From Verrucomicrobiota bacterium (GTDB taxonomy: Bacteria > Verrucomicrobiota > Verrucomicrobiia > Limisphaerales > J093): a stretch of 64,000 nucleotides of DNA. The position numbers and the translations under genes were made by a program. A model generated the notes under the pieces. The model was not told the origin of the DNA. It did not search any database and saw only the letters and a program-made list of their open reading frames with translations. The stretch is from positions 1 to 64,000 of the forward strand of contig JAKQDD010000211.1 in the NCBI GenBank assembly GCA_029556615.1, read 5' to 3'. Positions 198-47,012 of the stretch are shown here, piece after piece; the first letter of the stretch is position 1; every line of letters begins with the position of its first letter.

Positions 198-865
198 CTA
201 CAGGTCGATCTTCCCGCTTCGTAGACCCCGCTCCAGTGCCCACGCGGCTTGCTCGATGCTGACACGAGGGTTGGACCCGTACAGTCGCAGCGTGTAGAGC
301 AACGGGTTGTCGTCCGTGTCCATCGCATCATTGACCGCCTCGTCGATCTTGGCGTCGGTGTTCTTCTCTTCCTCCTCGACGCCCCGCGCGTAAGCCTCAC
401 GCTCCGTCTTCGCGAGGAGGTCGTCGAGACCCTTGACGCGCGGGAGGTTGCGGGCATGGTCGTCAGCCCACTCAAGGAGGCACCCCTCTGAGCAGAACAG
501 GGGATAGCTCGCAGGCAAGCGCGAGCCCTCCGCCCCCGCACCACATGCCAGGCAGGGGTCAAGGACCTCCATCATGAGGTTCTCTTCCTGTCGGAAGACG
601 CGGTGAACGCCCTGTTCAGCGAGGTCGAGCATCCACCCGATGACCTCCAGGACAACCTGGAGGACCTCGTCCCGCGCCTTGGCGGAAAGCTGGGAGGCGC
701 ACGACACCACGCTAGGTAGGAGGTCGAGGTCGACCTCGTACAGGGCCTCGATGAGAGGGTTACGCAGGGGTCGACGACGTCGACCCCCTGGAGCTTGTGG
801 GGTGAGCCCCAAGACGTGCGACCGGTCGTAGGGGAGGGGGGAGCTGCACGCGGTAGTTCGCATGC
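198..865 (-). CDS. hypothetical protein with C-terminal CxxC...CxxxC zinc-ribbon-like motif
   Basis: ORF track frame 198..980. Start placed at ATG 865 because the intergenic motif (886-894) sits about 21 nt upstream. The N-terminal extension to 980 looks like a GC-rich junk frame. Confidence 0.45.
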
Positions 866-900
866 CTCTATATCGACGATTGCCGTCGATATAGAGCTGA

Positions 901-1128
901 CTAGAAGCCGTAGAAGCGGATGTCCCGAAGCATCCGGCGGGGGAGCTGGTCAAGCGCATCGCAGGCCGCCAGCGGGTCACGCCGCGCGCGGTTGAGCTCG
1001 TGACGCTCGTGAGCTCGCCACTTGACCCAGGCGGCCTGCTTCATGCCGTGCTTGGTCTCGTTCTCCCAGGGGCAACGCAGCGAAGCGCGCACGGGGGGTG
1101 GGTTCTTCCGTCGATAGTTCTTGTGCAT
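901..1128 (-). CDS. hypothetical small basic protein
   Basis: 75-aa ORF with AAGGAGG 6 nt upstream of the ATG on the minus strand. Confidence 0.55.
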   Translation of the reverse strand: MHKNYRRKNPPPVRASLRCPWENETKHGMKQAAWVKWRAHERHELNRARRDPLAACDALDQLPRRMLRDIRFYGF

Positions 1129-1186
1129 GGGGTCCTCCTTGGCGGAGGGACCCCGGTGCTCGCGCGACAGCGGGCCATGAGGGATA

Positions 1187-2581
1187 CTAACCTGTCTGGC
1201 TCACGTGCCGGCGCAGCACGAACCGGATGATGCTGTTCACGTTGATGCGGTTCTTGCCCGCGTCGAGGGCCACGAGCTGACGGATGGTGATCTTGTCCTT
1301 GAACGGGTCCACCCCAGGCAGGTGCTGGGAGATCCACGCCATGGTCCCCTCCCGGCAGTTACCGACGGTGCGCGAGTCCTGGAAGGAGACCTCCCGGTCG
1401 AGGTCGGCCTCAAGGAGGTGCATGCCCGTCTGCCGGCTCGCCTCGGCGGCCGTGAGGGTGCGCGCCTGCTCTGCGAGCTCCGTGAGCCGCTGACGCGCCT
1501 CCTGTTCGGTCTCGCGCTCGCGGGCGCGCTTCGCCTGGGCGGCCTCGCGCTCCCGCTGGGTGCTGAGCGCGTCGAGCCGCTCCCGTCCCTTCTCCGTGAT
1601 GGCGAACCTGGCGAAGCTGCTGTGCTCGTCGTGAGGCTGCGGGACCACCAGGCCGTCCTTGGCCATCAGGCCAAGATCCTCGATGGTGTCCGGCTCTGAC
1701 CCCCGGTAGCCCCGGTGCGTGCCGAACGCCTCACCCCGAGCGGCGCGAGCGAGCGCGTCGTGCGTGCGGTACGCGATGCGCCGGACGACCAGCCCCTCGC
1801 GCTCCCCGTCCGCCCCCACGCGCACCTCCTCACCGACACCAAGCGCGGCGATCTCGACGATGCGCCCCCGGTACGCGTCGACGAGAGCCTTCCCCGCGTA
1901 CTCGCGCAGCGGGGGGTCGGATGTGGGGTTTTCGACCTCGTAAGTTCGACCCATCACCGCGATGCGCGCCTTCTCCCGCGCCACCAGCGTCGCGACGGGG
2001 ACCTTGATCCGGTGCTTGGACTCCGAACCGACATGGCGCGTCTGGCGACACGTCCGGCACTCGATGCTGTCCGAGTCGAAATGCCCGTCCTTCCGGTAGA
2101 GGAAGTTCACGTGGAGACCGTCCTTCGAGTAGCTCGACACCTCGCAGTGGCCTCCCAAGTTGCCCTCGCTCACCGCCTCGGGCAGGCGCACGCGTGCCCC
2201 CAGGTGGAGGATCTCGCCCTCCACCACCACCCGCTTGCGGTTGAGGACGCGCTCGAGCGCCGTGAGGACCGTGGCGTTCTTGCTGGAGGCCGCCAGCGTG
2301 TACCAGCGCTCCAACGTGCCCTCTCCAAGCCAGCAGGAGATCGAGAGGCCAGACTTCTCCTCGTCCGTGCGCGCGTATCGCTGATAGGACTTCATGGCCC
2401 GCGTGAGGTCGTCTGACTCCATGCGGATGTGCCCCACGATGACCGCCTGCATCGCGTGGTCGATCGCGTAGCCGCAGCGACGATTAGACGTGCGCGTCTG
2501 GTCGAGCGCATGCCGCAGGAAGGTGAGGGCCGGCGACAGACTGTAAGGTTTGTCAGGGGTCGAGGAGGAACGTGAGGCCAT
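1187..2581 (-). CDS. hypothetical protein (464 aa)
   Basis: Long ORF with protein-like composition. No P-loop or other motif recognised. Confidence 0.5.
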   Translation of the reverse strand: MASRSSSTPDKPYSLSPALTFLRHALDQTRTSNRRCGYAIDHAMQAVIVGHIRMESDDLTRAMKSYQRYARTDEEKSGLSISCWLGEGTLERWYTLAASSKNATVLTALERVLNRKRVVVEGEILHLGARVRLPEAVSEGNLGGHCEVSSYSKDGLHVNFLYRKDGHFDSDSIECRTCRQTRHVGSESKHRIKVPVATLVAREKARIAVMGRTYEVENPTSDPPLREYAGKALVDAYRGRIVEIAALGVGEEVRVGADGEREGLVVRRIAYRTHDALARAARGEAFGTHRGYRGSEPDTIEDLGLMAKDGLVVPQPHDEHSSFARFAITEKGRERLDALSTQREREAAQAKRARERETEQEARQRLTELAEQARTLTAAEASRQTGMHLLEADLDREVSFQDSRTVGNCREGTMAWISQHLPGVDPFKDKITIRQLVALDAGKNRINVNSIIRFVLRRHVSQTG

Positions 2582-2621
2582 GAAGCTAGGTCAACACACC
2601 GTCCTTCGACGGAGCTGAAGG

Positions 2622-3257
2622 CTAGTGGCCCGTGTTGGGGCTCGTCTGCGAGACGGCGTTCCCGCTCCACAACTGGCCTACTCCATGGTCGAAGCGCACG
2701 CGGTACCCAGTGCCGCTCATCTGGGGGACCTTCTTGACGGCGGGTCCTGCGAAGTGGTTGATGTCCGGCTTGACCTTGTCGTAGCCCTCATGGGACTCGA
2801 CGAGCTTCTGCTTGAGCGGGCGCACCTTGATCACCTTGTCGCCCACCTCGACCACCTGGAAGAAATCGGCGTTCGTCTGGTCGTACCCCCAGACGGTGTA
2901 GAGGACGTCTCCCACCTTGGCGGAGTGCTTCCACTCGCGCCGGGTCTGGAGCTCCTGCTGCTTGCGCTGGAGGTCCTCACGGCGAGACTTGATGGTGTCC
3001 TGCACGCGCCGCTCCCGCTGCTCCTCCGAGTTGAAGTAGTACCAGTAAAGGGGCTTGGCCGCGCGTCCCTGGTACACGAGGGCGGAGGGCTTGCCGCGCC
3101 GGTTGATGAACCGGTACACGACGAGGTCCGTCCCCTCAGGGGTCTCGGGGGTTACCTCCCGAGCCTCAGCGGGGAGATTGTGAGGGAGCACCTGCGCGCG
3201 CCGGCTTGCTAAGAGCCGGCTCACGACCTTTCTGTCCTGTGCGGAGAGCATCACCAA
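2622..3257 (-). CDS. hypothetical protein (211 aa)
   Basis: ORF in the co-directional block with an intergenic motif upstream (2603-2612). Confidence 0.5.
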   Translation of the reverse strand: MVMLSAQDRKVVSRLLASRRAQVLPHNLPAEAREVTPETPEGTDLVVYRFINRRGKPSALVYQGRAAKPLYWYYFNSEEQRERRVQDTIKSRREDLQRKQQELQTRREWKHSAKVGDVLYTVWGYDQTNADFFQVVEVGDKVIKVRPLKQKLVESHEGYDKVKPDINHFAGPAVKKVPQMSGTGYRVRFDHGVGQLWSGNAVSQTSPNTGH

Positions 3258-3260
3258 CGC

Positions 3261-3821
3261 CTAGGCCATGACCGGTTTAGCGCGATGAGTGGGGAAGAAG
3301 TTCTCCCACTTGGGGTCCTCGACGGGTGCGCCGAGGATCTCGTAGCTGCGACCTCGTCGCTGGAAGTACACGTAGACGGCCGTTTCTCCTTCGAGGAGGT
3401 ATCGCGTGTCCTCGTCCTGCGGCGCACGTGCCTGCACCGTCTGCTTGTCCTGGGAGGTGAAGATCACCTGACCGGTCGAGCTATTGATGAACCGCTCCAG
3501 GCAGACGAGGACCGCCTTGGCCGGCTTGGCGCGTACCGCGCACCAGCAGTCACCGCCGCACTTCTCACGGTACAGGTCGAACTTCTGACCCGTCTTCTGG
3601 TCGGTCACCTGGTCGAAGAACTCAGGTCCTCGCTCAGCCTCCCGCATGCGACGGTCTGATCGCTCGTACTCGGCCTCGGTCAGAAAGATGTCGCGCTCTT
3701 GGTAGCCCTTGGCACCAAGGTAGACGTGCAGCGAGTGCAGTGGGGTGGGATCGCCAGGGGCCGGAGAGGTTGCTTGGGTCGGGGAGGTCGCTTGGGTCGG
3801 GGAGGTCGCTTGGGTCGTCAT
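3261..3821 (-). CDS. hypothetical protein with N-terminal QATSPT x3 repeat
   Basis: ORF. An 18-bp tandem repeat (gcttgggtcggggaggtc, about 2.5 copies at 3766-3815) encodes the N-terminal repeat. Confidence 0.5.
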   Translation of the reverse strand: MTTQATSPTQATSPTQATSPAPGDPTPLHSLHVYLGAKGYQERDIFLTEAEYERSDRRMREAERGPEFFDQVTDQKTGQKFDLYREKCGGDCWCAVRAKPAKAVLVCLERFINSSTGQVIFTSQDKQTVQARAPQDEDTRYLLEGETAVYVYFQRRGRSYEILGAPVEDPKWENFFPTHRAKPVMA

Positions 3822-3862
3822 GACACGAGGTCGAGAAGACCCGAGCGATCGGAGCTGAGTAA

Positions 3863-5818
3863 CTACGCGGACTTGCTGGGCAGGGCGGGGGCGTCCTTCT
3901 TGCCCACGAGGTCCTTGGCGACCTCGGCCACCTGCTGGACCGCCTGAGCCGCGGTGGCGCGGACAGTCTCGGAGGCCCCCGCGAGGCCCCCCTCGACCAT
4001 CTGGCTGAGCCCCATACCGCGCATGAAGTGGCCGGTCATCTTCGCCACGTCCTCGGGCGTGCCGTAGACGTTGGCGTTCACCTTGCCGAGGAGGTTGACG
4101 GTGGCCTTCGCGGTCTCGATCTGCACGCGGGCCGTAGCTTCGATCCGCAGCTTGGTGAGCTCGAACTCCTGCTGGGCCGCGCCGTGCTCGGTACGAGCCT
4201 CCATCTCCTGCTTGAGCACCGTGACGCGCTGACGCTCGACCTCCATCTGCTGCTGGGCCACCTGGACGGGGACGAGAGCCTCGGCGCGGGAGCCCTCGGC
4301 ACGGAGGGTCTGGGCCCTGGAGTCGGCCTCGGCACGCATCATCTGAGCCTTGGCCTCGGCGTCAGCCTTCTTGAGGAGCGCCTCAGCGGCAGCGGCAGCG
4401 GAAGACTGCTGCGCCGCTGCTTCCTTCTCGATCACGTACGCCTTGGCGTCGGCACCACGCTTGGCCTCGATGAGCTTCTGCTCGGCCAACGCGTCGGCCT
4501 CAATGACCTTCTGCTTGCGCAACCGGTCCGCCTGGGCCTCGACCTCGACCGTCTGGATCTGCTGGATCGCGCGAGCTCGCTCGGCTTCCGCCTCTGCACG
4601 CTTGGCCTCTGCTACCGCCTTGTTCTTCTCGGCGTCCGCGACCTGCGTGGCGCGCTGCCGGTCGGCGATGTCGACCGCCTGGTTCTGCTGCACGTCGGCC
4701 AGCCGGACGGTCCGCTGCTGCTCAACCTCAGCGAGCTTGACGGCCTGAGCCTGACCCACCTGGGCCAGCCTGACCGCCTGCTCCTGCCGGACCTGGGCCT
4801 CGGCGAGCGCCTGGGCCTGGTCGACCTGAGCAAGCTGGACCGCCTGCTCCTGTCGAACCTGGGCGAGCTTGAGGGTCTGGGCCTGATCGACCCTGGCGAG
4901 CTCGATGGCCTGGTTCGCCAGGAGAGCCTGCTCCTGGGCACGCTGGTTCTGCTTGGCCGTCACGGCCGCGATGTCCGTCTTCTGCGCGAGCTCCGCCTCG
5001 GTGCGCTGCTGCTCAAGGATCAGGACCTTCTGTCGGGTCGCCACGTCCTGCTCGGTGCGCGCCTGCTCGCCCTGTCGCTCGATGGCGTTACGCTCGGTGA
5101 GCTGTCGCTGGGTGATCTCGGCGATGGCCCGCTTGCCCTGGGCATCGAAGATGTTGTCATCCCGCAGCGCCTTGGGGTTGGTCTGGTCGAGCCGCGAGAT
5201 CGTCGCGGTCTCCAGCGTCAGGCCGTTGGCCTCCAGGTCCCCGGTGAGCACGCTGCGTACCTCCTGCATGAACTCGTCGCGCTTGGTGTTGAGCTCCTCC
5301 AGCGTCTTGGTGGCGGCGACCTGGCGGAGCGCCGAGACGAGCTTGTCCTCGACGACCCGCTTGATGGATTCGGTATCCATCTTGTCCCCGAAGCTGCGGG
5401 ATGCGTTGACGATCGACCTGTCGTCCGGCTGGACGCGAACGAAGAACTCCGCGTGGATGTCGGCCCGCAGCTTGTCGTGGGTGATGAGGGCGTCGGAATC
5501 CTTGCGCTCCACCGCGAGTCGCACCGTCTGGAGGGTCACGCGGGTCGCGTTGTGGATCACGGGAATGAACAAGGTGCCCCCGTCCTTGACGACCCGCATA
5601 CCTCCCATGCCGGTCCGTACGAGCGCCGAGGAGGAGCTCGTGCGCACGTACAGCTTGGAGATGACCCCGATGACGGTGCTCACGACGAGCAGCACCAGTC
5701 CGAGCAGCATGAGGATGATGGTCGCCGCGCTGGCTAGATGAATCCCCGCGATCGCAGGGACGACGACCGGCCCCAGCAGGAGGAGTGCCCCAAGAAGGGC
5801 GAGAAGTACGAGCAACAT
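3863..5818 (-). CDS. flotillin / SPFH (band 7) family protein, YqiK-like
   Basis: N-terminal TM helix, SPFH-like core, a long Ala/Gln/Glu-rich coiled-coil region (repeated AQV, LAQV, EAQ), and a C-terminal tail. This architecture is typical of bacterial flotillins. Confidence 0.8.
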   Translation of the reverse strand: MLLVLLALLGALLLLGPVVVPAIAGIHLASAATIILMLLGLVLLVVSTVIGVISKLYVRTSSSSALVRTGMGGMRVVKDGGTLFIPVIHNATRVTLQTVRLAVERKDSDALITHDKLRADIHAEFFVRVQPDDRSIVNASRSFGDKMDTESIKRVVEDKLVSALRQVAATKTLEELNTKRDEFMQEVRSVLTGDLEANGLTLETATISRLDQTNPKALRDDNIFDAQGKRAIAEITQRQLTERNAIERQGEQARTEQDVATRQKVLILEQQRTEAELAQKTDIAAVTAKQNQRAQEQALLANQAIELARVDQAQTLKLAQVRQEQAVQLAQVDQAQALAEAQVRQEQAVRLAQVGQAQAVKLAEVEQQRTVRLADVQQNQAVDIADRQRATQVADAEKNKAVAEAKRAEAEAERARAIQQIQTVEVEAQADRLRKQKVIEADALAEQKLIEAKRGADAKAYVIEKEAAAQQSSAAAAAEALLKKADAEAKAQMMRAEADSRAQTLRAEGSRAEALVPVQVAQQQMEVERQRVTVLKQEMEARTEHGAAQQEFELTKLRIEATARVQIETAKATVNLLGKVNANVYGTPEDVAKMTGHFMRGMGLSQMVEGGLAGASETVRATAAQAVQQVAEVAKDLVGKKDAPALPSKSA

Positions 5819-5854
5819 AGGTTCTCCTTGTGACGGGCCAAGGCCCGGATGTGA

Positions 5855-6490
5855 CTACTGAGGCTCCCGAATGACGCTGTGGACTCCCGTGTCCGCGTCG
5901 TACCCGGCGACCATGACGCGCTCCCCCTTGGGGATCGGCCCCTCCAGTGCTCGGGCCTTGAGCACGTGGTAGCTGCCCACGTCGTCGTACACCCCGACGT
6001 ACCCCGAGTCAGCCCCGACGTCACTCGTCGCCTCCCCGGTTGATCCCACCAGGGACTCGGCCGTCACGCTGTGGTGCTCGTGCGTCGGAAAGAACCGACC
6101 AACCAGCAGGCATAGTCGTCGCCCGAGCAGGAAGATCGAAGCGACGGCCATGACGAGGGACAAGAACCCAACCCAACCGGACGACAGGTAGGCCGACAAG
6201 AGGCGGGTGACGATCAACCCCGTGGTCCCGAAGATCAGGGTGGTTATCGCGACCGCCAGGCCCGTGGGAACGCTGCCCGACCCGAGCGCGTAGAGCACCC
6301 AGGACATCGGCCCAGCCCCCTCAACACCCTCGGCGTCACCCTCTGGCTCAGCGTCCGCTTCGACGTCGACGTCGGCGTCGGCGTCAGCTTCGGCGTCCGC
6401 ACCCATCGACAGAATGGAGCCAAGGCACACCACGATGCCCACTACGATGGTCGCTACATACAGGAGCACGTACCAGGATTGGAGGTTCAT
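5855..6490 (-). CDS. NfeD-like (YqiJ-like) membrane protein, partner of the SPFH protein
   Basis: Multiple TM helices with an acidic DAEADAD linker and a C-terminal beta-rich OB-like segment. It sits immediately upstream (same strand) of the flotillin gene, the usual nfeD-SPFH operon arrangement. Confidence 0.6.
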   Translation of the reverse strand: MNLQSWYVLLYVATIVVGIVVCLGSILSMGADAEADADADVDVEADAEPEGDAEGVEGAGPMSWVLYALGSGSVPTGLAVAITTLIFGTTGLIVTRLLSAYLSSGWVGFLSLVMAVASIFLLGRRLCLLVGRFFPTHEHHSVTAESLVGSTGEATSDVGADSGYVGVYDDVGSYHVLKARALEGPIPKGERVMVAGYDADTGVHSVIREPQ

Positions 6491-6526
6491 ACCCCATCCT
6501 ACCGGCCTGGTTTTGGGGCGGAGCTG

Positions 6527-6817
6527 TCAGGCGAGCAACAAGCGCAAACGATGCTCCTCTACGGCTGCGTTCGCGACGATGAGGGCCTGGTCGGCGATCT
6601 TCCGCGTGCGGAACGTGTAGTAGCCGTCCACGCTGCGCCCAGTCGAGAGTCTCGACCGCCCGATCGCGAAGCGCGCCGCGCGAGTCAGGCGTGGGTCGGC
6701 CCCGTAGCGGTCCCAGCGGAGGTAGAAGACCCGGTCGATCCGGTCGACGACCAGCTTGTGGTCCTCGGAGGAGACAGGCAAGGCTCGAATGTGTGCAGGC
6801 ACCATGAAGGGGTCCAC
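6527..6817 (-). CDS. hypothetical protein (GTG start)
   Basis: 96-aa ORF in the block. Start codon is GTG. Confidence 0.4.
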   Translation of the reverse strand: MDPFMVPAHIRALPVSSEDHKLVVDRIDRVFYLRWDRYGADPRLTRAARFAIGRSRLSTGRSVDGYYTFRTRKIADQALIVANAAVEEHRLRLLLA

Positions 6818-6835
6818 AAAGCGTGTCGAAGGGAA

Positions 6836-8245
6836 CTACTGAGCCGCCAGCCGGCACGTCAGGCCGTAGAGGGCGTCTGACAGCACGATGCGCCAAGCGG
6901 GGGTATGGGACTCCGGGCCGAGCTCGCGCATGGAGGCCGGTAGCGCGTCCACCTGCTCGCGCACGTACTGGCGCACGTCCTCAGGACGGGAGGTGGGCCC
7001 GACGGGGCGCGTTCCGCGCCACAGCGGCTGGAGCAAAGGGGTGAGACCGCTGGGGGCGGGTTCGTACTCAAGCTGAAGCAGGTCGTAGCCGTCCCCGCGG
7101 TAGCACTGGATCGGTCCCGGCAGGGTCGTCTTGCCCGACCCCGACGAGGTCTTCATGACGGGCACGCCGAAGCTGTTCGACACGACCTTCCCGACCGCGC
7201 CGATCCCCGTGGCCGCGTCGGGCGAGCAGGTGATGTTCTCGCCGACCCCGAAGGCGTCGGCACCGGCCGCGGCGAGCTTCAGCACGCGGTGCTCGTCCAG
7301 CCCGTCCGACACGGTGATCCGGGTCTGCGAGGACCCGAGTTCGTCGAGGAGCGCGCGAGCTCGACGCACGGTCTCCTCGGTGACGTTGGAGTCGATGCGT
7401 ATCCCCTTCAGGGGGCGGCTAGTGTCGCGCGCCGCCTGGACCGCGCGGCGGATCCCCCGCTCAGTGTCGTAGGTGTCGACGAGGAGCACGGAGGCGCTTG
7501 CCTGCTCCAGCATGCGGCGGAACGCGACCCCCTCGGAGTGGTCCCGCGACCCGCCGTCCTCGCACGCCATCACGGCGAAGTGGTCCATCGTGCCCGCCAC
7601 CGGGACCCCGAACACGGAGGCCGCGGCGAGGTTGCTCGTCCCCGCACAGCCCGCGATGTAGGCCGCGTAGGAGGCTCGGACGGCCGCGTCGGGGTCCGTC
7701 CGGCGCTGCCCGAACTCGTAGACGGGCCGGTCCACGCCGTCGAAGCGGGCGGCCATCGCCACCCGTACCGCCTTGGAGGCGACCATCGACATGTGGTTCA
7801 GCCGCGACAGCCAGGGCGTCTCGACCAGCTTGCACTGGAGGAGGGAGGTCCGCACCTGGAGCAGCGGGGTCGCCGCGCAGAGGGGGGACCCTCCCACCAG
7901 GGCAACGTCTCCGCTCGTGCGCCGCGCGATGCCGGCGTGCGCGAGCGTCCCCTCGGGGAGGGCGTCGATGTCGCCCGTGAACCCGGAGATGTTCTCCAGG
8001 TCCCAGATGAGCCGCTCGTCTCGGCCGGGAACGACCTCGCGCAGGAACTGGAGGTCGCGAGGGCGGAAGGTGAGCCGCTCCGCGTGGTCCAGGATCTCCT
8101 GGTACCCGCACGCCACCACGAACCGCCGGTTCCGCGGGAGCCGTCGGAAGAAGAAGCTCATCCACAGGGGCGCGTCCGGCACGTAGTCGCGCAGCGCGAG
8201 GTAGGAGGTGAGCTGGTAGAGGTCAACGCCAAGGGAGGGGTTCAT
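6836..8245 (-). CDS. nicotinate phosphoribosyltransferase-like enzyme (NAPRTase / PncB family)
   Basis: N-terminal DLYQLTSYLA motif typical of NAPRTases. Length 469 aa. Gly-rich phosphoribosyl-binding segments in the C-terminal half. Confidence 0.7.
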   Translation of the reverse strand: MNPSLGVDLYQLTSYLALRDYVPDAPLWMSFFFRRLPRNRRFVVACGYQEILDHAERLTFRPRDLQFLREVVPGRDERLIWDLENISGFTGDIDALPEGTLAHAGIARRTSGDVALVGGSPLCAATPLLQVRTSLLQCKLVETPWLSRLNHMSMVASKAVRVAMAARFDGVDRPVYEFGQRRTDPDAAVRASYAAYIAGCAGTSNLAAASVFGVPVAGTMDHFAVMACEDGGSRDHSEGVAFRRMLEQASASVLLVDTYDTERGIRRAVQAARDTSRPLKGIRIDSNVTEETVRRARALLDELGSSQTRITVSDGLDEHRVLKLAAAGADAFGVGENITCSPDAATGIGAVGKVVSNSFGVPVMKTSSGSGKTTLPGPIQCYRGDGYDLLQLEYEPAPSGLTPLLQPLWRGTRPVGPTSRPEDVRQYVREQVDALPASMRELGPESHTPAWRIVLSDALYGLTCRLAAQ

Positions 8246-8281
8246 GCGCCAGGGTCGGCTCGACCCCCAGTAACGGAGCTG

Positions 8282-8563
8282 TCAGAGGTCCCGGATGATG
8301 GGGTCAAGGTCCGAGGGGATCGGGTCCTCGGGGGGGACCTGGGCGCGAATCGCGGGAGCGAGCGGGACCGAGATGTCCAGGTACCGGATGGGGGGACCTC
8401 CCTCCTCGACCAGGCCCACGACCTCCCCCGGCGCGTACCAGCCGCGCCGTCCCCCGAAGTCGACCTCGAAGGGGAAGGCGCGCGTCGGCTCGACGCGCAC
8501 GATCGTCCCCACCCCATGGGTCGCACCTGGAGGGACTCCGGGTGGTCTGGCCGAACCTCGCAC
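8282..8563 (-). CDS. hypothetical small protein (paralog of 8589..8927; shared WYAPxEVV motif)
   Basis: ORF with an intergenic motif upstream and a shared motif with its neighbour. Confidence 0.45.
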   Translation of the reverse strand: MRGSARPPGVPPGATHGVGTIVRVEPTRAFPFEVDFGGRRGWYAPGEVVGLVEEGGPPIRYLDISVPLAPAIRAQVPPEDPIPSDLDPIIRDL

Positions 8564-8588: not shown

Positions 8589-8927
8589 TCACAGCTTGGA
8601 CACCTCCGCGTCGAGGTCCGTCGGGAACGGCTCCGGCCTGCGGAGGTCGGGGAGGCATAGCTCGTCGATCATGTCGACGATCTCCTCCGGCGCGTACCAG
8701 GCGTGCGTGGGCTTGCCGTCCGCGCGGAGGTGTCGAACCTCGAAGCACAGGCCGTGCGAGTTGCTGTAGTCGACCACCTCCCCCAGGCCGTCACGCCTCC
8801 ACTCGGGGTGCATGAACTCCCGGTCGAACGCGGGGTTGACGCGGACCGTCACCCGCGTGCCGATCGGGTTCAGGCGACCCGGATACTCCGACGCGAACTT
8901 CTCCTTGGATCCTACGAACGTGGGCAT
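8589..8927 (-). CDS. hypothetical small protein (paralog of 8282..8563)
   Basis: ORF carrying the WYAPEEIV motif. Confidence 0.45.
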   Translation of the reverse strand: MPTFVGSKEKFASEYPGRLNPIGTRVTVRVNPAFDREFMHPEWRRDGLGEVVDYSNSHGLCFEVRHLRADGKPTHAWYAPEEIVDMIDELCLPDLRRPEPFPTDLDAEVSKL

Positions 8928-27839: not shown

Positions 27840-27914
27840 GCGCTCGTAGCTCAGTCGGTAGAGCGTTCGGAGTAATGACCCGAAAGGCCGCGAGTTCGAT
27901 CCTTGCCGGGCGCG
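27840..27914 (+). tRNA. tRNA gene (anticodon unresolved; hand fold gives a 9-nt anticodon loop)
   Basis: Hand-folded cloverleaf. Acceptor GCGCTCG / CGGGCGC. D-arm GCTC-AGTCGGTA-GAGC. Anticodon stem TTCGG / CCGAA with loop AGTAATGAC. T-arm GCGAG-TTCGATC-CTTGC. No CCA encoded. Confidence 0.6.
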
Positions 27915-27969
27915 CTTATCCTTCGCTGACGATCGTTCCGAGGACGGGCCTGGCCCGTCCTCGGGTACG

Positions 27970-30527: not shown

Positions 30528-31118
30528 TTAGGTCGGAGCTGACGACTTGGAAACCGGATCCGACGACTTGGAAGGTGGGACGCGGACCACATGGACCTTC
30601 TGGATGAGCAGCGGCTTGTCCCCGATGGGCAGGCTCACCACGTAGATCCAGCCGGCCGGGATGTCCTTGTTGACCATCACCTGCGCCCCATACACCTTGA
30701 CCAAAGCGCCCGCGTGAACCATCGCGGTGCGGGTCTCGAAGTCGAGAACCTCGCGGCCGAACTTGCGCAGGTCCGCGTAGTCACGCGCGTTCATGTAGAG
30801 GGCGTTGACGAAGCGGTTCTGCTCCTCGACCGTCCGCATGACGGCTTCGATGTCGTCTGGGCTGACGTAGTTGCAGTGGATCTCGTGAGCCGCCGGCACG
30901 GCCTGCTCGATCACCACAGGGAGCAGGGAGATGAGCTCGATGGCCTCGGTCTCGGGGGCCGAGATGTTGAGGTCGACGCTGGCGGTGACGTGGTTGGCGA
31001 GCAGCCGCAGGCGCTCGGACATCTCGTCCCGCAGGTCCGCCTGTAGCAGCATGAGGTCGCGGACGGTCTTGATGTTTCGTAGGCGGTTTGTGAACTCTTG
31101 GTCGTTGATCAGGCCCAT
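30528..31118 (-). CDS. hypothetical protein (196 aa)
   Basis: ORF with motif at 30535-30543. Confidence 0.5.
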   Translation of the reverse strand: MGLINDQEFTNRLRNIKTVRDLMLLQADLRDEMSERLRLLANHVTASVDLNISAPETEAIELISLLPVVIEQAVPAAHEIHCNYVSPDDIEAVMRTVEEQNRFVNALYMNARDYADLRKFGREVLDFETRTAMVHAGALVKVYGAQVMVNKDIPAGWIYVVSLPIGDKPLLIQKVHVVRVPPSKSSDPVSKSSAPT

Positions 31119-41529: not shown

Positions 41530-41939
41530 CCAAGCCCCTCCCCCACCCCAAACGCAAGCCATGCCGCAGGCACCCCTAGCGCCTTGGCCAAGCGTTCCGC
41601 CCGCCCGATATCGGGGACATTGCCCTGCCTCTCCAGGGCGCTCACAGATGCGCCCGTCATCTCCGCCATGTCTCCAAGTTGTCGCTGGCTCAGCCCTCGC
41701 GCTTGTCGCGCCAGGATCAGCCGCTCTCCAAACGAGAGTGCCTCCGATTGCGCCATGGCTTCTCTTGGCTCGACGCCGTAGGCCAGCCAGGCAGGGTTGA
41801 TTTTCAACGCATCTGCGAGGCGGCATACCGTCTCCACCCGCGGCACGCGCCCCGCGGCCTCAAGTGCGCGCACCGTGTCCACGCCCAACCCCGCAGCGGT
41901 TGATAGGTGGGCGCGGACGAGGTCGCGCTCTCGGCGTAC
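41526..41939 (-). CDS. XRE-family regulator with two HTH domains
   Basis: Two Cro/C1-type HTH segments. Possible GTG start at 41939. ORF-track frame extends to 42059. Confidence 0.55.
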   Translation of the reverse strand, partial: VRRERDLVRAHLSTAAGLGVDTVRALEAAGRVPRVETVCRLADALKINPAWLAYGVEPREAMAQSEALSFGERLILARQARGLSQRQLGDMAEMTGASVSALERQGNVPDIGRAERLAKALGVPAAWLAFGVGEGLG

Positions 41940-42206
41940 ACGCTGGAGACGCCCCGGGAAGCCATGATGCAGTGGGTTCGGTCGACCGCTGGTCACGGTG
42001 ACCGCCGTAGCACAGGCTCGCCAGACCCAGCCAGAGCACGAGATTTTCTCTCGGCCCATACTTTTTGTTTTGACGCCGAACCAAGCTCAACTACTCTGCG
42101 CAAGCCCGCGGGAGAATAGAGGAACGGGCACCGACAGGGCTGCAACCCCGTCGGTGCCCTAGCGCGACCCGGCGAAATGACCGCCGAGGCGCACTGGAGG
42201 TAATTT

Positions 42207-42614
42207 ATGCGCTGCTCCACCCCTTGGCCCACTCTTTCTTCTCGACGAAAAACTCGCCCCCGATCAAGGAAGCCGCCCCGAATCCTGGCCCACTTCAACC
42301 TTGATGACTCCGCCGAACGTGATGCGGTTCGTTGGATCGCTCTTTTTCATAGCAAGGACGGCATCTACCGCCTGCTCGCTCTTCGACGGGGTCAGACAGT
42401 TGAGGGCAGAGCGATCTGGATGCTGACCAGAAGCTGTGTCGCGCGTCCACGCGCAAAACCTCAATGGCTGCTGATCTCGTACTGGCTGGATGAGATTCGC
42501 GTCATGTTGCCGTCGTATCCGACCTTGCGGGTTGCACGAGCCGCTTTCGAGGCCGCTGAGGCGAACTCTCCCCCGTCTTCCGTCCGCCCTCCTGTGCCCC
42601 AATCCAGCACCTAA
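42207..42614 (+). CDS. hypothetical protein
   Basis: ORF. Overlaps the 3' end of the convergent XRE gene. Confidence 0.3.
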   Translation: MRCSTPWPTLSSRRKTRPRSRKPPRILAHFNLDDSAERDAVRWIALFHSKDGIYRLLALRRGQTVEGRAIWMLTRSCVARPRAKPQWLLISYWLDEIRVMLPSYPTLRVARAAFEAAEANSPPSSVRPPVPQSST

Positions 42615-42933
42615 CGAGTTCCAAGAGCGCCTGCTGTCCGCGGGTGCCCAACTGCCGCCAGCCCTCGACAAGCTCCGATTCAGCTGCCGAGAGCCCCGTC
42701 GGGCCTCCGCCGACCAACTGCTCGAGCGGGAGGCCCAGCACACGCGAGGCTCGGCTCAGCAGGTCTAGCGATACCGCCAGCTTCCCACACTCATACCGCG
42801 AGACGCTTTCGGTCGAGACGCCGAGCGCTTCCGCGAGCTGCTCCTGCGACATCTTCTTGGCCAGGCGCCCGTGTCGGAGGCGGCGAGCCACCCGCTGTCG
42901 CAGCTGCAGGTTTGTGGCCTGGGTCTTGGGCAT
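42502..42933 (-). CDS. XRE-family HTH regulator
   Basis: LRQRVARRLRHGRLAKKMSQEQLAEALGVSTESVSRYECG is a Cro/C1-type HTH. Start at ATG 42933. Confidence 0.55.
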   Translation of the reverse strand: MPKTQATNLQLRQRVARRLRHGRLAKKMSQEQLAEALGVSTESVSRYECGKLAVSLDLLSRASRVLGLPLEQLVGGGPTGLSAAESELVEGWRQLGTRGQQALLELVRCWIGAQEGGRKTGESSPQRPRKRLVQPARSDTTAT

Positions 42934-43053
42934 CGGCTCGGTGTAATTGCCCAGGATTCCGCGTCGCTGGCCATGGCTCAAGAATCCTGATGTTGCGATA
43001 TACGCAATAATGAGTGACGTTCCTCGTCGCCAGAACCAACCAGGAGGTAGGCA

Positions 43054-44061: not shown

Positions 44062-44310
44062 CCTTCTGTCCCAGCGTGCGCCGCTCCCCGTGAACCCGCG
44101 CTGGGCCATTTTTGCCCTCGCGGACTCGCGGATGATGGATCTTTTGCCACCTCTTGACGCGGTTCCTAGTCTGGCCCTTCTCCTGAATTGGGAGCACCAA
44201 AGATCCGCAAAGTATCCAGAAGGGTCCTCCGACGATCTCGCGTGAAATTAGTTGCTTGAAGATCCGGCCTACGCTAAGTCTCCGGGATCCCTGGACCTTC
44301 GGATTGGAGC

Positions 44311-44795
44311 AGATGAGAATGGCCTACGAACTACTGCCTGATGGTCGTGTGATCGCTACCACTCTCGCAGACGCTATCGCTTGGCAGGATGCCAAATCCG
44401 CCGTCGGGACCGCGCTCAGGGGGGAGCCCCAATCCCAGGGCCAACCTCAAGCGGCTGCAACGCAAAAGGTTGTTCCTACCGGAACCGATGAGAGGTCTCT
44501 CTGGTTATCTGGTGCGGCCAGGCTTGACGAACGAGATCGTTCACTGATTCAGAAGGTTGTCGACGCGGAATCCATTCGCCGAGTGGCACTCAAGAAGGTT
44601 CTCACGGAACACGGTACCTCACTGCTGCGGTTCCTGGAGCGGATCGAAGCGACCGCCACCGAATCCGGCTTCCAGCGCGAGGATATCTTGGAGCGCACCG
44701 AGAGTGGCGCAGGCCCCAAGAAGGTTGTGACATTTCGTCCGGGGCGGTTACTCCGTGCCTACGGTCTCGGACTCTCTGACTCAAGTACCAAATAA
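44311..44795 (+). CDS. hypothetical protein
   Basis: ATG 44311 (MRMAYELL) within ORF-track frame 44256. Confidence 0.4.
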
Positions 44796-45240: not shown

Positions 45241-46125
45241 ATGATCGACATGAACAAGTTGTCGAGGGAAAAGAGGGTCGCGATCCTCTCCACTCTCGTC
45301 GAGGGTTGCTCGATGGCCTCCACCGAGCGCATTAACAACGTGAGCAAGCGCGCCGTAGCCAAGCTGCTCGCCGACATCGGCGCGGTCTGCGACGCATACC
45401 AGGATCGGGTCTTTCGGAACCTCAACTGCAAGCGATTGGAATGCGACGAGCTGCACAGCTTCGTCCAGATCCGGGAAGTACACGTCCCCGAGGAAAAGAA
45501 GGGCCAGCTTGGCTACGGGGAAGTCTGGACGTTCACGGCAATCGACGCGGAGACCAAACTCATCCCGTGCTGGCTCGTTGGAAAGCGCGATGAGGACACC
45601 GCAAGGGCCTTCATTGGGGACTTGGCGGGTCGCCTCGCTAGCCGGGTGCAGCTCACGACGGACGGACTGAAGGCATACGTTGAGGCCGTCGGGGATAGCT
45701 TCGAGGAGGTGGACTTCGCGCAGCTCGTGAAGGAATACAAAGGCGGCTCTCTGAAGCAGCAAAAAAGTGGAAAGGGTCGGTACAGCGGCGCACAGAAGAC
45801 ACTGGTCGCGGGCAGTCCCGATGAGAAGCTGGTCAGCACGTCCTACGTGGAGCGGCACAACCTGACCATGCGCATGGGTATGAGGAGGTTCACCCGGAAG
45901 ACGAACGCCTTCAGCAAGAAACTGGAGCGCCATATGGACGCGCTGGCGCTGTTTTTCTTCCACTACAACTTCTGCCGCATCCACATGACGCTGCGCGTGA
46001 CGCCGGCCATGGCGGCGGGGATCACGGACCACGTCTGGTCCCTCGACGATGTCGTGGCGCTGCTGCCCGACGAGCAGGCACCTCGAAACCTGCTCACACC
46101 CATCAAACCCAGGCGGGCAGCATAG
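45241..46125 (+). mobile_element. IS1-family-like transposase ORF (element ends not resolved)
   Basis: N-terminal HTH. TDGLKAY ... [28 protein letters not shown] ... FHYNFCRIH resembles the InsB-type DDE region. Embedded in a lower-GC block. Confidence 0.55.
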
Positions 46126-46211
46126 ACATGTTGCCGTCTTCGCTGGCGCCCAAAGTCGGCGTCGGTGGTGGCCCTGCCAGGCCGCCGATCACCCAATCAA
46201 AAGGAAGAAAC

Positions 46212-46863: not shown

Positions 46864-47012
46864 GCCTCTACGCTACCCAGCTGGACCAACAATTCGGTCC
46901 TGTCAACGACGAGGACCTTTCTTCGGCAATGCCGGGATACGAAGCGTCTGGTCGGACCTCAAAGGCACCCACTACCAGATAGTAAACGGACATTACTGGA
47001 AAGGAACTGACG

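What the first reader, a model, noticed from the sequence alone, without database searches (positions are those of the whole stretch)
6836..8245. Phage-borne nicotinate phosphoribosyltransferase-like gene (NAD salvage, candidate counter-defence)
The DLYQLTSYLA N-terminus marks the NAPRTase family. NAD+ salvage or reconstitution enzymes on phages are established counter-measures to NAD-depleting immunity (TIR, SIR2, Thoeris, DSR-type effectors). I found no NMN/NaMN adenylyltransferase or NAD synthetase partner in this window, so the pathway may be completed elsewhere or by the host.
Basis: partly seen in the sequence, partly recalled or inferred. Interest (0 to 1): 0.6.

Follow-up and report, generated by a model that had tools for sequence, protein, structure and literature searches.

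The report
Lone nicotinate phosphoribosyltransferase on huge phage-like element
The gene is a real, intact nicotinate phosphoribosyltransferase (first step of NAD salvage from nicotinic acid) carried, without its pathway partners, on a very large and probably viral element from wastewater sludge; such genes are already known in jumbo phages, so this is a new example and not a new kind of thing.

Summary
The ORF at 6836..8245 (minus strand, 469 aa) is real and belongs to the PncB/NAPRTase family, not Nampt. Pfam NAPRTase_N and NAPRTase pass their thresholds. A confident AlphaFold model (pLDDT 93) matches NAPRTase structures best (TM 0.84), with NAMPT clearly second. All five catalytically essential residues are kept (Y10, R181, H222, R283, K353).

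It belongs to a divergent subfamily that scores below NCBI's equivalog cutoffs. Chromosomal members in Myxococcota sit in pncA–pncB–nadE arrangements, so the subfamily is very probably a genuine nicotinate enzyme.

The host element is at least about 350 kb and rich in ORFans. It recurs with zero nucleotide differences in several sludge metagenomes. It carries jumbo-phage-like genes, including connector-like and capsid-like fragments. No terminase or portal was seen in the roughly 80 kb examined, and it is absent from the viral-contig catalogue, so a phage origin is probable but not proven.

No PncA, NadD, NadE or Nmnat lies in the window or within 10 kb of either end.

Most likely the gene boosts the rate-limiting step of host Preiss-Handler NAD synthesis during infection. 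A counter-defence role is plausible but untested, and a lone NAPRTase cannot rebuild NAD by itself. Phage-borne pncB is already documented (Bacillus phage G, "NAD-jumbo phages"). Interest is modest.

The parts
6836..8245 (-). NAPRTase (PncB-type nicotinate phosphoribosyltransferase) gene, 469 aa. N-terminal domain is about aa 7-149, the catalytic barrel about aa 156-374, and the C-terminal domain about aa 399-460.
   Evidence: ORF and GC3. Pfam PF17767 and PF04095 above cutoff. NCBIfam NAPRTase models at E=6e-86 but below equivalog cutoffs. PDB 2f7f at 3e-42. AF2 model pLDDT 93. Best folds are NAPRTases, TM 0.84. Active-site residues Y10, R181, H222, R283 and K353 retained.
8589..8927 (-). Upstream small ORFan (112 aa) in the same-strand array. 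It stays next to the NAPRTase in a diverged relative. Function unknown.
   Evidence: 76% identical homologue directly upstream of the 73%-identical NAPRTase on L029. No Pfam or PHROG hit.
8282..8563 (-). Small ORFan (93 aa) immediately upstream of the NAPRTase. It is a distant paralogue of 8589..8927.
   Evidence: 30% identity to the same L029 region as 8589..8927. No family hit.
6527..6817 (-). Small ORFan (96 aa) immediately downstream of the NAPRTase, with conserved synteny.
   Evidence: 65% identical homologue downstream of the NAPRTase on L029. No family hit.
5855..6490 (-). NfeD/YqiJ-like membrane protein. It is context only and is not part of NAD metabolism.
   Evidence: Pfam YqiJ_N 1.3e-4 and NfeD 1.7e-3, both below cutoff. 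52% identical fragment at the end of L029.
3863..5818 (-). SPFH/Band-7 (flotillin-like) protein, the partner of the NfeD-like gene. Context only.
   Evidence: Pfam Band_7 2.6e-17.
25381..26322 (+). Evidence for a phage origin: a protein with an intein-like N-part and a C-part homologous to a jumbo-phage head-tail connector protein.
   Evidence: tblastn gives LR745208.1 (485 kb uncultured phage) at 41% identity, 7e-64; Tunturiibacter phage Tunturi_5 gp319 'head-tail connector protein' at 2e-11, located in a tail/connector module; and phage G gp165. Intein structures match residues 30-132.
30528..31118 (-). Evidence for a phage origin: a short (196 aa) protein resembling part of an HK97-type major capsid protein.
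   Evidence: phrog_2522 'major head protein' at 2.7e-7. PDB 6wkk 'Gp27 major capsid protein' at 6e-6. Both are weak, partial matches.
27840..27915 (+). tRNA-Ile (anticodon AAT), the only RNA gene in the window.
   Evidence: ARAGORN. Rfam tRNA 52.4 bits.

Best explanation
The gene encodes a catalytically competent, ATP-coupled nicotinate phosphoribosyltransferase (PncB type: nicotinate + PRPP -> nicotinate mononucleotide + PPi). It belongs to a divergent subfamily whose cellular members are the Preiss-Handler enzyme of Myxococcota. The gene sits, without other NAD genes nearby, in an array of small unknown genes on a very large (at least ~350 kb), probably viral (huge-phage) element from activated sludge or digesters.

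During infection the extra enzyme raises flux through the first, rate-limiting step of the host's nicotinate salvage route. Host PncA supplies nicotinate from nicotinamide, and host NadD and NadE finish the conversion to NAD+. This sustains NAD for a long, resource-hungry infection and could soften NAD depletion.

Shown: family, fold, retained catalytic residues, conservation in a lineage of related elements, absence of partners within about 80 kb, and the pncA/nadE context of cellular homologues. Inferred: the actual substrate and activity, the phage nature of the element, the host, and the benefit to the element.
For: Family and type. Pfam NAPRTase_N and NAPRTase are above cutoff. All top NCBIfam hits are NAPRTase. 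The PDB sequence search returns only NAPRTases and no NAMPT. The AF2 model (pLDDT 93, pTM 0.92) matches NAPRTases best (2f7f/4mzy TM 0.84-0.85, E~1e-37). NAMPTs come second (TM~0.68-0.70, E~1e-19, 17-18% identity).

Catalytic residues. Y10, R181, H222, R283 and K353 align to E. faecalis Y17, R163, H205, R262 and K333, equivalent to human Y21, R171, H213, R318 and K396 as defined in PMC4442680.

Subfamily function. 5 of 5 Myxococcota genome loci have glutamine-dependent NadE directly downstream. Two or three also have an isochorismatase-family (PncA-type) gene directly upstream, overlapping by 4 nt in L011. The deviations from canonical NAPRTase are invariant in 125 clade members. Operon-embedded members score equally far below the NCBIfam cutoffs. 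The low score is therefore a trait of the subfamily and not decay.

Maintenance. The gene has 0 nucleotide differences on 5 other contigs from independent samples. Homologues at 73% and 63% identity keep the same neighbouring genes. dN/dS is 0.34-0.55.

Element. The same sequence lies on contigs of 138, 158 and 331 kb. About 85% of genes are ORFans. The element carries a connector-like gene, an MCP-like fragment, phage-only PHROG families, a UvsX-like protein, RNase H, HNH, a tRNA and Cpn60.

Precedent. Bacillus phage G has a NUDIX-PncA-NAPRTase-KptA-NadD-NadE cluster. pncB-nadD-nadE clusters occur in jumbo phages (PMC11662467). Iyer et al. note 'abbreviated versions ... or just the former enzyme' (PMC7824862).
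Against: No enzymology exists for any member of this subfamily.

Five positions around the PRPP/phosphohistidine pocket differ from all characterised NAPRTases: S206->F223 (next to the catalytic His), T317->E336 in the GVGT loop, D267->V288, H203->M220, and ND->DG at 314-315. Donor or acceptor specificity could therefore differ.

The protein fails every NCBIfam equivalog cutoff.

A lone NAPRTase gives no NAD unless the host supplies nicotinate, NadD and NadE, and the host is unknown.

No terminase, portal or full-length capsid gene was found in the ~80 kb inspected. The element is absent from the viral contig collection and from INPHARED.

The dN/dS values are only moderately low and are unreliable at GC3 = 0.93.
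Confidence: 0.68

Rival explanations
1. Dedicated counter-defence. The gene was selected specifically to rebuild NAD+ after NADase effectors (TIR, SIR2, DSR, Thoeris) deplete it. It would recycle the released nicotinamide through host PncA, phage NAPRTase, host NadD and host NadE.
For: Phage NAD-restoring pathways do defeat NAD-depleting defences (NARP1/2: bioRxiv 10.1101/2024.02.11.579819; NARP3: PMC13464706). NAPRTase is the rate-limiting step of Preiss-Handler salvage (PMC4442680). Related NAPRTases co-occur with ADP-ribose-processing genes on other large elements: NUDIX and NADAR on L015 and NUDIX and KptA in phage G. This fits the NAD/ADPR conflict theme of PMC7824862.
Against: No experiment links NAPRTase or the deamidated route to anti-defence; neither NAPRT nor the Preiss-Handler route appears in the NARP papers. 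The route needs three host enzymes, plus ATP and glutamine. By contrast, 94% of phages with NARP2 Nampt also carry Nmnat, which indicates that self-sufficient pathways are what selection favours. No anti-defence or NAD/ADPR-processing gene lies within ~80 kb. The immediate neighbours are ORFans and an SPFH/NfeD pair.
Confidence: 0.25
2. The element is not a phage. The window would be part of a megaplasmid, an integrative element or a chromosomal island of an uncultured high-GC bacterium, and the NAPRTase would be an ordinary horizontally moved cellular gene.
For: No terminase, portal or full capsid gene was found in ~80 kb. The element is absent from the viral contig collection. IS elements, HTH repressors, DNA methylases and AbiEii-like ATPases are present. 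The element exceeds 350 kb.
Against: The connector-like gene is shared with a 485 kb uncultured phage (41% identity, 7e-64), with jumbo phage Tunturi_5 (where it sits in a tail/connector module) and with phage G. There is an MCP-like fragment and strong matches to phage-only PHROG families (phrog_6676 at 4e-39, phrog_37671 at 7e-27, phrog_37844 at 2e-21). About 85% of genes are ORFans. No core cellular, replication-initiator or conjugation genes were seen. There is no plasmid match. The cellular homologues keep pncA/nadE neighbours that are missing here.
Confidence: 0.15
3. Altered chemistry. The subfamily's remodelled pocket means it does not perform the classical reaction. For example, it might use ADPR-PP like phage Namat, or a different pyridine or aromatic carboxylate.
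For: Osterman et al. showed that PF04095 annotations can hide a different donor substrate. Five pocket positions are invariantly different from characterised NAPRTases. The subfamily fails the equivalog cutoffs.
Against: Namat is a Nampt-branch enzyme (~36% identical to Nampt) that is co-encoded with Adps. The query is 17-18% identical to NAMPT structures and has an NAPRTase_N domain. No Prs/Adps-like gene lies in the window or flanks. The residues contacting nicotinate, PRPP and ATP that were validated by mutagenesis are all kept. The cellular context is the textbook pncA-pncB-nadE arrangement.
Confidence: 0.05
4. An inactive passenger: a recently captured host gene that is decaying and has no function for the element.
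For: The protein scores below the curated NAPRTase cutoffs. dN/dS is up to 0.55 against the 63% homologue. A related gene in huge phage LR745208.1 appears broken after ~225 residues.
Against: The ORF is full length with all catalytic residues and all 84 clade-invariant positions intact. The fold is confidently predicted. The gene is kept in the same gene neighbourhood across relatives diverged to 73% and 63% identity. The low scores are shared by the operon-embedded cellular enzymes.
Confidence: 0.03

Closest known systems
Bacillus phage G gp277, an NAPRTase within a complete Preiss-Handler cluster (NUDIX gp273, PncA-like gp275, NAPRTase gp277, KptA-like gp280, NadD gp281, NadE gp283)
   Same: A PncB-type NAPRTase carried by a huge (497 kb) phage. 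It has the same fold family and domain order and is 31% identical over 397 aa.
   Different: Phage G carries the whole pathway next to the gene, whereas this element has none within ~80 kb. gp277 is a canonical NAPRTase that passes the NCBIfam cutoffs (653 vs 469 bits). The window protein belongs to a divergent subfamily that does not pass.
'NAD-jumbo phages' with pncB-nadD-nadE gene clusters (e.g. Kuafu_71; PMC11662467), and the 'abbreviated' single-enzyme NAD systems of jumbo phages noted by Iyer et al. 2021 (PMC7824862)
   Same: Large phages carrying NAD salvage genes, including the Preiss-Handler route. A lone phosphoribosyltransferase with no partner is an already noted arrangement.
   Different: Those surveys cover gut and cultured jumbo phages. 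The lone enzymes discussed by Iyer et al. are mostly Nampt-type. This one is a nicotinate-type enzyme of a Myxococcota-like subfamily in a high-GC sludge element.
Myxococcota/Polyangia chromosomal pncA-pncB-nadE loci (e.g. MCS6913497.1, MBL8632320.1, both annotated 'hypothetical protein')
   Same: The same subfamily, at 50-57% identity over the full length. The invariant signature residues are identical: M220, F223, V288, D314 and E336.
   Different: The cellular genes are flanked by NadE and often by PncA. The window gene is flanked by ORFans and an SPFH/NfeD pair. It forms its own lineage with two metagenomic relatives.
Enterococcus faecalis NAPRTase (PDB 2F7F/4MZY) and human NAPRT (4YUB)
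   Same: Best structural matches (TM 0.84 and 0.75). The active-site Tyr, the two Arg, the phospho-His and the Lys are conserved (PMC4442680).
   Different: Only 24-28% identity. There is a ~20-residue insertion around residues 100-125 and a shorter C-terminal domain. Ser206/214 is replaced by Phe, and Thr317 of the GVGT loop is replaced by Glu.
NARP1 (Adps+Namat), NARP2 (Nampt+Nmnat) and NARP3 (PnuC+NadR) phage NAD+ reconstitution pathways
   Same: Phage-encoded enzymes that feed NAD+ synthesis. Namat and Nampt share the type II phosphoribosyltransferase fold and the Pfam PF04095 domain.
   Different: This is a different branch (nicotinate type, not nicotinamide type) with a different product (NaMN), which needs two further steps including amidation. 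There is no partner gene and no experimental anti-defence evidence.

Membership tests
NAPRTase / PncB (type II phosphoribosyltransferase, EC 6.3.4.21) | NAPRTase_N (PF17767) plus NAPRTase catalytic domain (PF04095) above Pfam gathering scores | tested here: met
   43.4 bits vs 32.6 and 37.7 bits vs 20.8.
NAPRTase / PncB (type II phosphoribosyltransferase, EC 6.3.4.21) | Score above an NCBIfam NAPRTase equivalog cutoff | tested here: not met
   Best scores are 288.9 vs 330 (NF009131) and 258.8 vs 297.4 (TIGR01513). The same shortfall occurs in the Myxococcota members that sit in pncA-pncB-nadE loci: 281-284 vs 330 and 259-276 vs 297.4. This reflects model coverage of a divergent subfamily and not a defect of this copy.
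NAPRTase / PncB (type II phosphoribosyltransferase, EC 6.3.4.21) | Catalytic and substrate-binding residues validated in human and E. faecalis enzymes: Tyr (Y17/Y21), Arg (R163/R171), phospho-His (H205/H213), Arg (R262/R318), Lys (K333/K396) | tested here: met
   Y10, R181, H222, R283 and K353 are present, and each is invariant in 125 clade members. The residue list comes from PMC4442680.
NAPRTase / PncB (type II phosphoribosyltransferase, EC 6.3.4.21) | Ser following the catalytic His (S206/S214, proposed PRPP/ATP phosphate contact), and Thr of the GVGT loop | tested here: not met
   F223 and E336 occupy these positions, invariantly across the subfamily. The consequence for activity is unknown.
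NAPRTase / PncB (type II phosphoribosyltransferase, EC 6.3.4.21) | Three-dimensional fold closest to solved NAPRTases | tested here: met
   The AF2 model has pLDDT 93. Foldseek ranks 2f7f, 4mzy, 4yub, 1ytd and 2i14 first (TM 0.70-0.85) and NAMPT next.
NAPRTase / PncB (type II phosphoribosyltransferase, EC 6.3.4.21) | Functional coupling to the Preiss-Handler pathway (gene neighbourhood with pncA, nadD or nadE) | tested here: inconclusive
   Met for the cellular subfamily members: NadE is adjacent in 5 of 5 loci and PncA in 2-3. Not met for the window copy, which has no such gene within ~80 kb.
NAPRTase / PncB (type II phosphoribosyltransferase, EC 6.3.4.21) | Formation of NaMN from nicotinate and PRPP, stimulated by ATP | not testable with these tools
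   Requires enzymology.
Nampt / NadV (nicotinamide phosphoribosyltransferase) | Nampt-type N-terminal domain, and closest sequence and structure similarity to NAMPT | tested here: not met
   There is no NAMPT_N hit and no NAMPT among the PDB sequence hits. The only link is a weak partial PHROG 'nicotinamide phosphoribosyl transferase' match at 8e-7. NAMPT structures are second tier at 17-18% identity.
NARP1 Namat (nicotinamide ADP-ribose transferase) | Nampt-like core (~36% identity to Nampt) co-encoded with a Prs-like Adps gene | tested here: not met
   Identity to NAMPT is 17-18%. No Prs/Adps-like domain occurs in the window or flanks.
NARP2 (Nampt + Nmnat) | Nampt together with an NMN adenylyltransferase in the same genome or operon | tested here: not met
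   The enzyme is not Nampt-type, and no adenylyltransferase was found in the ~80 kb examined. The rest of the element is unseen.
Complete phage-encoded Preiss-Handler cluster (phage G / Kuafu type) | pncB clustered with nadD and nadE (with or without pncA) | tested here: not met
   None occurs in the window or within 10 kb of either end, by Pfam and by tblastn. More than 270 kb of the element could not be examined.
Tailed (huge/jumbo) phage genome | Virion and packaging hallmark genes (terminase, portal, major capsid, tail) | tested here: inconclusive
   A connector-like C-domain is shared with jumbo phages, and there is a short MCP-like fragment. No terminase, portal or full capsid gene was found in ~80 kb. 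The element is not in the viral contig collection or INPHARED.

The most novel reading that the evidence does not exclude
The subfamily carries an invariant, coordinated remodelling of the phosphoribosyl-donor pocket: Ser->Phe next to the phospho-His, Thr->Glu in the GVGT phosphate loop, Asp->Val, His->Met, and ND->DG. It also sits directly upstream of NadE, with no NadD in the operon. The evidence does not exclude that these enzymes use a bulkier donor such as ADPR-PP with nicotinate. That reaction would make deamido-NAD (NaAD) in one step for NadE to amidate. It would be a 'deamidated NARP1-like' shortcut that bypasses NadD. On a phage, it would recycle both NADase products with help from only PncA and NadE.
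Probability: 0.03. Interest if true: 0.8.

Novelty: new member of a known kind. Interest (0 to 1): 0.3.

Why it matters
If the reading is right, this adds a high-GC environmental example, possibly infecting Myxococcota, to the known set of huge phages that carry NAD-salvage genes. It also shows a minimal configuration in which only the rate-limiting nicotinate step is carried and everything else is left to the host.

It exposes an annotation gap. A well-populated, operon-supported NAPRTase subfamily is labelled 'hypothetical protein' by NCBI because it falls below the equivalog cutoffs.

It gives a concrete test of whether the deamidated (Preiss-Handler) route can serve as anti-NADase counter-defence, which has not been shown for any phage. 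The finding does not change current understanding, because phage-encoded pncB and lone phosphoribosyltransferases in jumbo phages are already in the literature.

Tried and rejected
- **Known phage or plasmid match.** Megablast of 20-25 kb against INPHARED and PLSDB found no match.
- **Viral contig collection.** Scans with the NAPRTase, an AAA protein and the connector-like protein found nothing. No catalogue-based viral label is available.
- **PADLOC.** A scan of the NAPRTase, its neighbours and suspicious ATPases gave only generic ATPase or helicase similarities, and nothing for the NAPRTase or the SPFH/NfeD genes.
- **Regulatory signals.** The promoter/terminator scan around the gene found nothing above shuffled expectation. 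Rfam found only the tRNA, with no NAD-related riboswitch.
- **Six-frame partner search.** tblastn for PncA, NadD, NadE, NUDIX, KptA and NADAR in the window and flanks was negative.
- **Walking the element.** I could look only ~10 kb beyond each window end, because look-ups are limited to window proteins. The remaining 270+ kb could not be examined.
- **dN/dS.** Values are 0.34-0.55 but are of limited value, because GC3 of 0.93 compresses synonymous divergence.
- **Namat-type function.** Considered and rejected on branch membership and the missing Adps.
- **Pseudogene or decay.** Rejected on intact invariant positions and conserved synteny.
- **L015.** PHROG annotation of the 149 kb contig with NAPRTase+NUDIX+NADAR did not settle whether it is viral.
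Full report
**Observation**

It runs from 6836 to 8245 on the minus strand and encodes 469 aa beginning MNPSLGVDLYQLTSYLALRDY. In this ~66% GC window its third-position GC is 0.93, which marks a genuine coding frame. The start agrees with the N-termini of homologues.

The gene lies in a tight same-strand array, with intergenic gaps of 18-48 nt, that runs from about 14.6 kb down to the left end of the window. No promoter, terminator or riboswitch signal stands out around it.

**Family: PncB versus Nampt**

- Pfam gives NAPRTase_N (residues 7-149) and the NAPRTase catalytic domain, both above gathering thresholds.
- Every strong NCBIfam hit is 'nicotinate phosphoribosyltransferase' (best E=6e-86). 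None reaches its equivalog cutoff: 288.9 vs 330 and 258.8 vs 297.4.
- A sequence search of the PDB returns only NAPRTases, led by E. faecalis 2F7F at 3e-42 and followed by human 4YUB, P. furiosus 2I14 and T. acidophilum 1YTD. It returns no NAMPT.
- An AlphaFold2 model built on a 41-sequence alignment is confident (pLDDT 93.0, pTM 0.92).
- Foldseek against the PDB ranks NAPRTases first: 2f7f/4mzy with TM 0.84-0.85 and E~1e-37, then 4yub, 1ytd and 2i14. NAMPT structures form a clear second tier (TM 0.67-0.71, E~1e-19 to 1e-20, 17-18% identity).

The enzyme is therefore of the nicotinate (PncB) type.

**Catalytic residues**

The human NAPRTase structure paper lists the active-site residues as E. 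faecalis Y17, T162, R163, H205, S206, R262 and K333. These are equivalent to human Y21, L170, R171, H213, S214, R318 and K396. Mutagenesis supports Y21, H213 and R318 (PMC4442680).

In a 128-sequence alignment the query has Y10, Q180, R181, H222, F223, R283 and K353. The Tyr, both Arg, the phospho-His and the Lys are all kept. The T/L position is naturally variable.

Differences from canonical enzymes are:

| Canonical (E. faecalis) | Query |
|---|---|
| S206 | F223 |
| H203 | M220 |
| D267 | V288 |
| N293-D294 | D314-G315 |
| T317 | E336 |

Each of these is invariant or nearly so across all 125 relatives examined. They are signatures of a subfamily and not lesions in this copy.

**What the subfamily is**

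The large protein database holds the identical protein on 7-13 contigs. The next relatives are at 73% and 63% identity. After those comes a large group at 50-57% identity, mostly from Myxococcota and Polyangia MAGs. NCBI calls these 'hypothetical protein', and JGI calls them nicotinate phosphoribosyltransferase.

Gene context resolves the ambiguity:

- In L011/L012 the gene is preceded by an isochorismatase-family (PncA-type nicotinamidase) gene that overlaps it by 4 nt. It is followed by a glutamine-dependent NAD synthetase (CN_hydrolase + NAD_synthase).
- L013/L014 have the NadE gene 19 nt downstream.
- By tblastn, all five species-representative Myxococcota loci (L006-L010) have NadE immediately downstream. 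L007 and L008 also have PncA upstream.

This is the textbook Preiss-Handler salvage arrangement. The operon-embedded proteins score just as far below the NCBIfam cutoffs as the query: 281-284 vs 330 and 259-276 vs 297.4. Phage G gp277 passes easily at 653 vs 469. The sub-threshold score thus reflects incomplete model coverage of a divergent but functional subfamily.

**The window copy within that subfamily**

A neighbour-joining tree puts the query with the 73% and 63% relatives in a small lineage of their own beside the Myxococcota group. The evidence for maintenance is as follows.

- The short contig carrying the 73% relative (L029) has the same neighbours: homologues of window genes 8589..8927 (76% identity), 6527..6817 (65%) and the NfeD-like gene (52%).
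- The 63% relative (L030) is followed by a homologue of 3261..3821 (46%).
- The gene has therefore been passed down within a diverging lineage of related elements and was not captured recently.
- It is identical at all 1407 compared nucleotides on five other contigs from independent samples.
- NG86 dN/dS is 0.37, 0.55 and 0.34 against L029, L030 and a Myxococcota gene. This is compatible with purifying selection, but extreme GC3 compresses dS, so I give it little weight.

**Is the element a phage?**

The evidence favours a phage but does not prove it.

Size and recurrence:
- The same sequence lies on contigs of 138,450, 158,589 and 331,503 bp, and a 273,402 bp contig is on record.
- Aligning contig coordinates implies an element of at least ~350 kb.

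Gene content:
- About 90 genes fit in the 64 kb, and roughly 85% have no Pfam or PHROG match.
- Those with matches are an AlkB-like dioxygenase, PTH2, a DEAD helicase, HD_4, DnaJ, an HNH endonuclease, two N6/N4 methylases, RlaP paralogues and AAA ATPases.
- The flanks add a UvsX-like small RecA, RNase H, an RNA ligase, a VWA protein and a Cpn60 chaperonin.
- There is one tRNA.

Virion-related evidence:
- The protein at 25381..26322 matches the 485 kb uncultured phage LR745208.1 (41% identity, 7e-64). It also matches jumbo Tunturiibacter phage Tunturi_5 gp319, annotated 'head-tail connector protein' and lying next to minor tail and tail terminator genes, and phage G gp165.
- The upstream TnsA-like nuclease gene is conserved in the same order in LR745208.1.
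- The 196-aa protein at 30528..31118 weakly matches a PHROG major head family (2.7e-7) and a solved major capsid protein, 6wkk (6e-6).
- Several proteins hit phage-only PHROG families strongly: phrog_6676 at 4e-39, phrog_37671 at 7e-27, and phrog_37844 at 2e-21, whose tblastn relatives are ~190 kb Vibrio jumbo phages.

Evidence against:
- No terminase, portal or full-length capsid gene lies in the ~80 kb I could see.
- Megablast finds nothing in INPHARED.
- Three scans of the viral contig collection find nothing.
- IS elements and HTH repressors are present.
- There is no plasmid match either.

I put the probability of a huge phage at about 0.8-0.85.

**Pathway partners**

No isochorismatase/PncA, NadD/Nmnat, NadE, NadR, PnuC, NUDIX, Macro, NADAR, SIR2 or Prs/Adps-like protein was detected. 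This holds for Pfam scans of my gene calls and for independent precomputed gene calls and Pfam hits. Those independent calls cover about -9 to +18 kb, 23.8-58 kb and 49.8-70 kb in window coordinates. It also holds for six-frame tblastn with phage G and Myxococcota pathway proteins.

More than 270 kb of the element remains unexamined.

**Mechanism**

The best-supported reading is an auxiliary metabolic gene. A competent NAPRTase raises flux through the first, rate-limiting, ATP-driven step of the deamidated salvage route. It depends on the host for nicotinate supply (PncA) and for the NadD and NadE steps.

The closest cellular relatives belong to Myxococcota, which keep this very pathway as an operon. 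A host of that kind would supply the missing steps. The host assignment is an inference from sequence affinity and GC content only.

Counter-defence against NADase effectors is a reasonable extension but rests on analogy. The demonstrated phage routes are NARP1 (Adps+Namat), NARP2 (Nampt+Nmnat, with 94% co-occurrence of the two genes) and NARP3 (PnuC+NadR). Each is self-sufficient for its chemistry, and none uses NAPRTase.

Osterman et al. also warn that PF04095 annotations can conceal a different donor substrate. I therefore checked the Namat alternative. Namat is a Nampt-branch enzyme, ~36% identical to Nampt, and is co-encoded with Adps. The query satisfies neither criterion.

**Comparison with the known, and novelty**

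- Bacillus phage G carries an annotated NUDIX-PncA-NAPRTase-KptA-NadD-NadE cluster.
- A survey of 668 gut jumbo phages reports complete salvage or Preiss-Handler sets in 174 of them, including pncB-nadD-nadE clusters (PMC11662467).
- Iyer et al. note that some jumbo phages keep 'abbreviated versions ... or just the former enzyme' (PMC7824862).

A phage-borne NAPRTase-family gene, even a lone one, is thus a known kind of feature. Three things are new here:
- the particular subfamily, which is Myxococcota-type and currently unannotated by NCBI;
- the environmental, high-GC, at least 350 kb element that carries it;
- the complete absence of partners nearby.

I rate this as a new member of a known kind, with interest about 0.3.

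The most novel reading not excluded is that the invariant remodelling of the donor pocket signals altered chemistry, for example nicotinate + ADPR-PP giving NaAD that feeds NadE. I give that about 3%.

Noticed in passing
window 24573-26322 (+); LR745208.1 locus L031 11114-12933: The connector-like protein (25381..26322) starts inside an intein-like region (it matches the KlbA and RadA intein structures). A TnsA-like nuclease gene (24573..25415) lies directly upstream and overlaps it. The same two-gene order is conserved in the 485 kb huge phage LR745208.1 (38% and 41% identity). The N-terminal half of the connector (~140 aa in Tunturi_5 gp319) was not found in the window. This may be a 'fractured gene' or split-intein arrangement with an intervening homing endonuclease.
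   Followed up: partly
Myxococcota loci L006-L014 (e.g. L011 6237-10594; L013 7001-10411): There is an annotation gap. A large NAPRTase subfamily sits in pncA-pncB-nadE arrangements in Myxococcota and Polyangia MAGs, yet NCBI labels its members 'hypothetical protein' (e.g. MCS6913497.1, MBL8632320.1). The cause is that all members score below the NCBIfam equivalog cutoffs.
   Followed up: yes
L015 (ENA ERZ25038328 NODE_15, 149,497 bp), 318-8422: A 52%-identical subfamily member sits on another large ORFan-rich contig. It is divergently adjacent to a NUDIX hydrolase and ~5 kb from a NADAR-domain protein and a DUF5131 (phage Gp37/Gp68) protein. This may be a second mobile element combining NAPRTase with ADP-ribose-processing enzymes. 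PHROG annotation did not settle whether it is viral.
   Followed up: partly
L028 (LR745208.1 60906-73574, reverse complement), ORF 5986-6930: The NAPRTase-like gene of huge phage LR745208.1 aligns only over residues 1-247. Its reading frame diverges just after the GTCAHS catalytic-His motif. The gene may be truncated, frameshifted or interrupted.
   Followed up: partly
window 27840-27915 (+): The only tRNA is tRNA-Ile with anticodon AAT, an unusual anticodon for bacteria and phages. It lies between the connector-like gene and a block of small plus-strand genes.
   Followed up: no
window 20034-21300 (-), and contig ends near window ~20.8-20.9 kb: The C-terminus of the 752-aa helicase carries a tandem duplicated ~60-aa module (…KAIIAYAKDHEGRGPNVKSGDATTYFG…). 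A related module occurs in the adjacent 88-aa protein (20034..20300). Two independent assemblies (ENA k141_840356 and JGI Ga0209096_1000092) both end at about this position. The cause may be a repeat-induced break or a genuine structural boundary or terminus.
   Followed up: partly
window 13728-14661 (-) and 17353-17613 (-): There is a paralogous family of small proteins or repeats sharing a '(V/L)YAIR…G.Y..R…W(T/S)..L..A(R/Q)(L/M)(F/Y)' motif. It has five copies in four genes, with no Pfam or PHROG match. A second paralogue pair lies at 17629..17934 and 17937..18431.
   Followed up: no
window 3863-6490 (-): An SPFH/Band-7 (flotillin-like, 651 aa with a long coiled-coil) and NfeD/YqiJ-like membrane-protein pair lies immediately downstream of the NAPRTase. 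Such a pair is unusual cargo for a phage-like element. The NfeD-like gene keeps its position in the 73% relative (L029).
   Followed up: no
window 30528-31118 (-): A 196-aa protein matches only the C-terminal ~95 residues of HK97-type major capsid proteins (phrog_2522 and PDB 6wkk). It is too short to be the capsid protein of a huge phage. It may be a fragment, a decoy or an unrelated small-shell protein.
   Followed up: partly
window ~41900-47000; left flank in L017-L019: A lower-GC stretch (59-61% vs ~66%) holds an IS1-type transposase (45241..46125) and an HTH repressor-like gene (42502..42981). Beyond the left end of the window, contigs from different samples differ by an inversion and by IS (DDE_Tnp_1) insertions around two HTH genes. 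This points to active rearrangement within the population.
   Followed up: no
window ~50996-54586 (+); L033 13186-16776: Two adjacent RlaP (RNA-repair-pathway nucleotidyltransferase) paralogues are followed by an AAA ATPase. My GC3-based gene calling missed the first, 427-aa RlaP gene. With PTH2 (14715..15113), the HD_4 protein and the RNA ligase and RNase H in the left flank, the element carries a notable set of RNA- and translation-repair genes.
   Followed up: no
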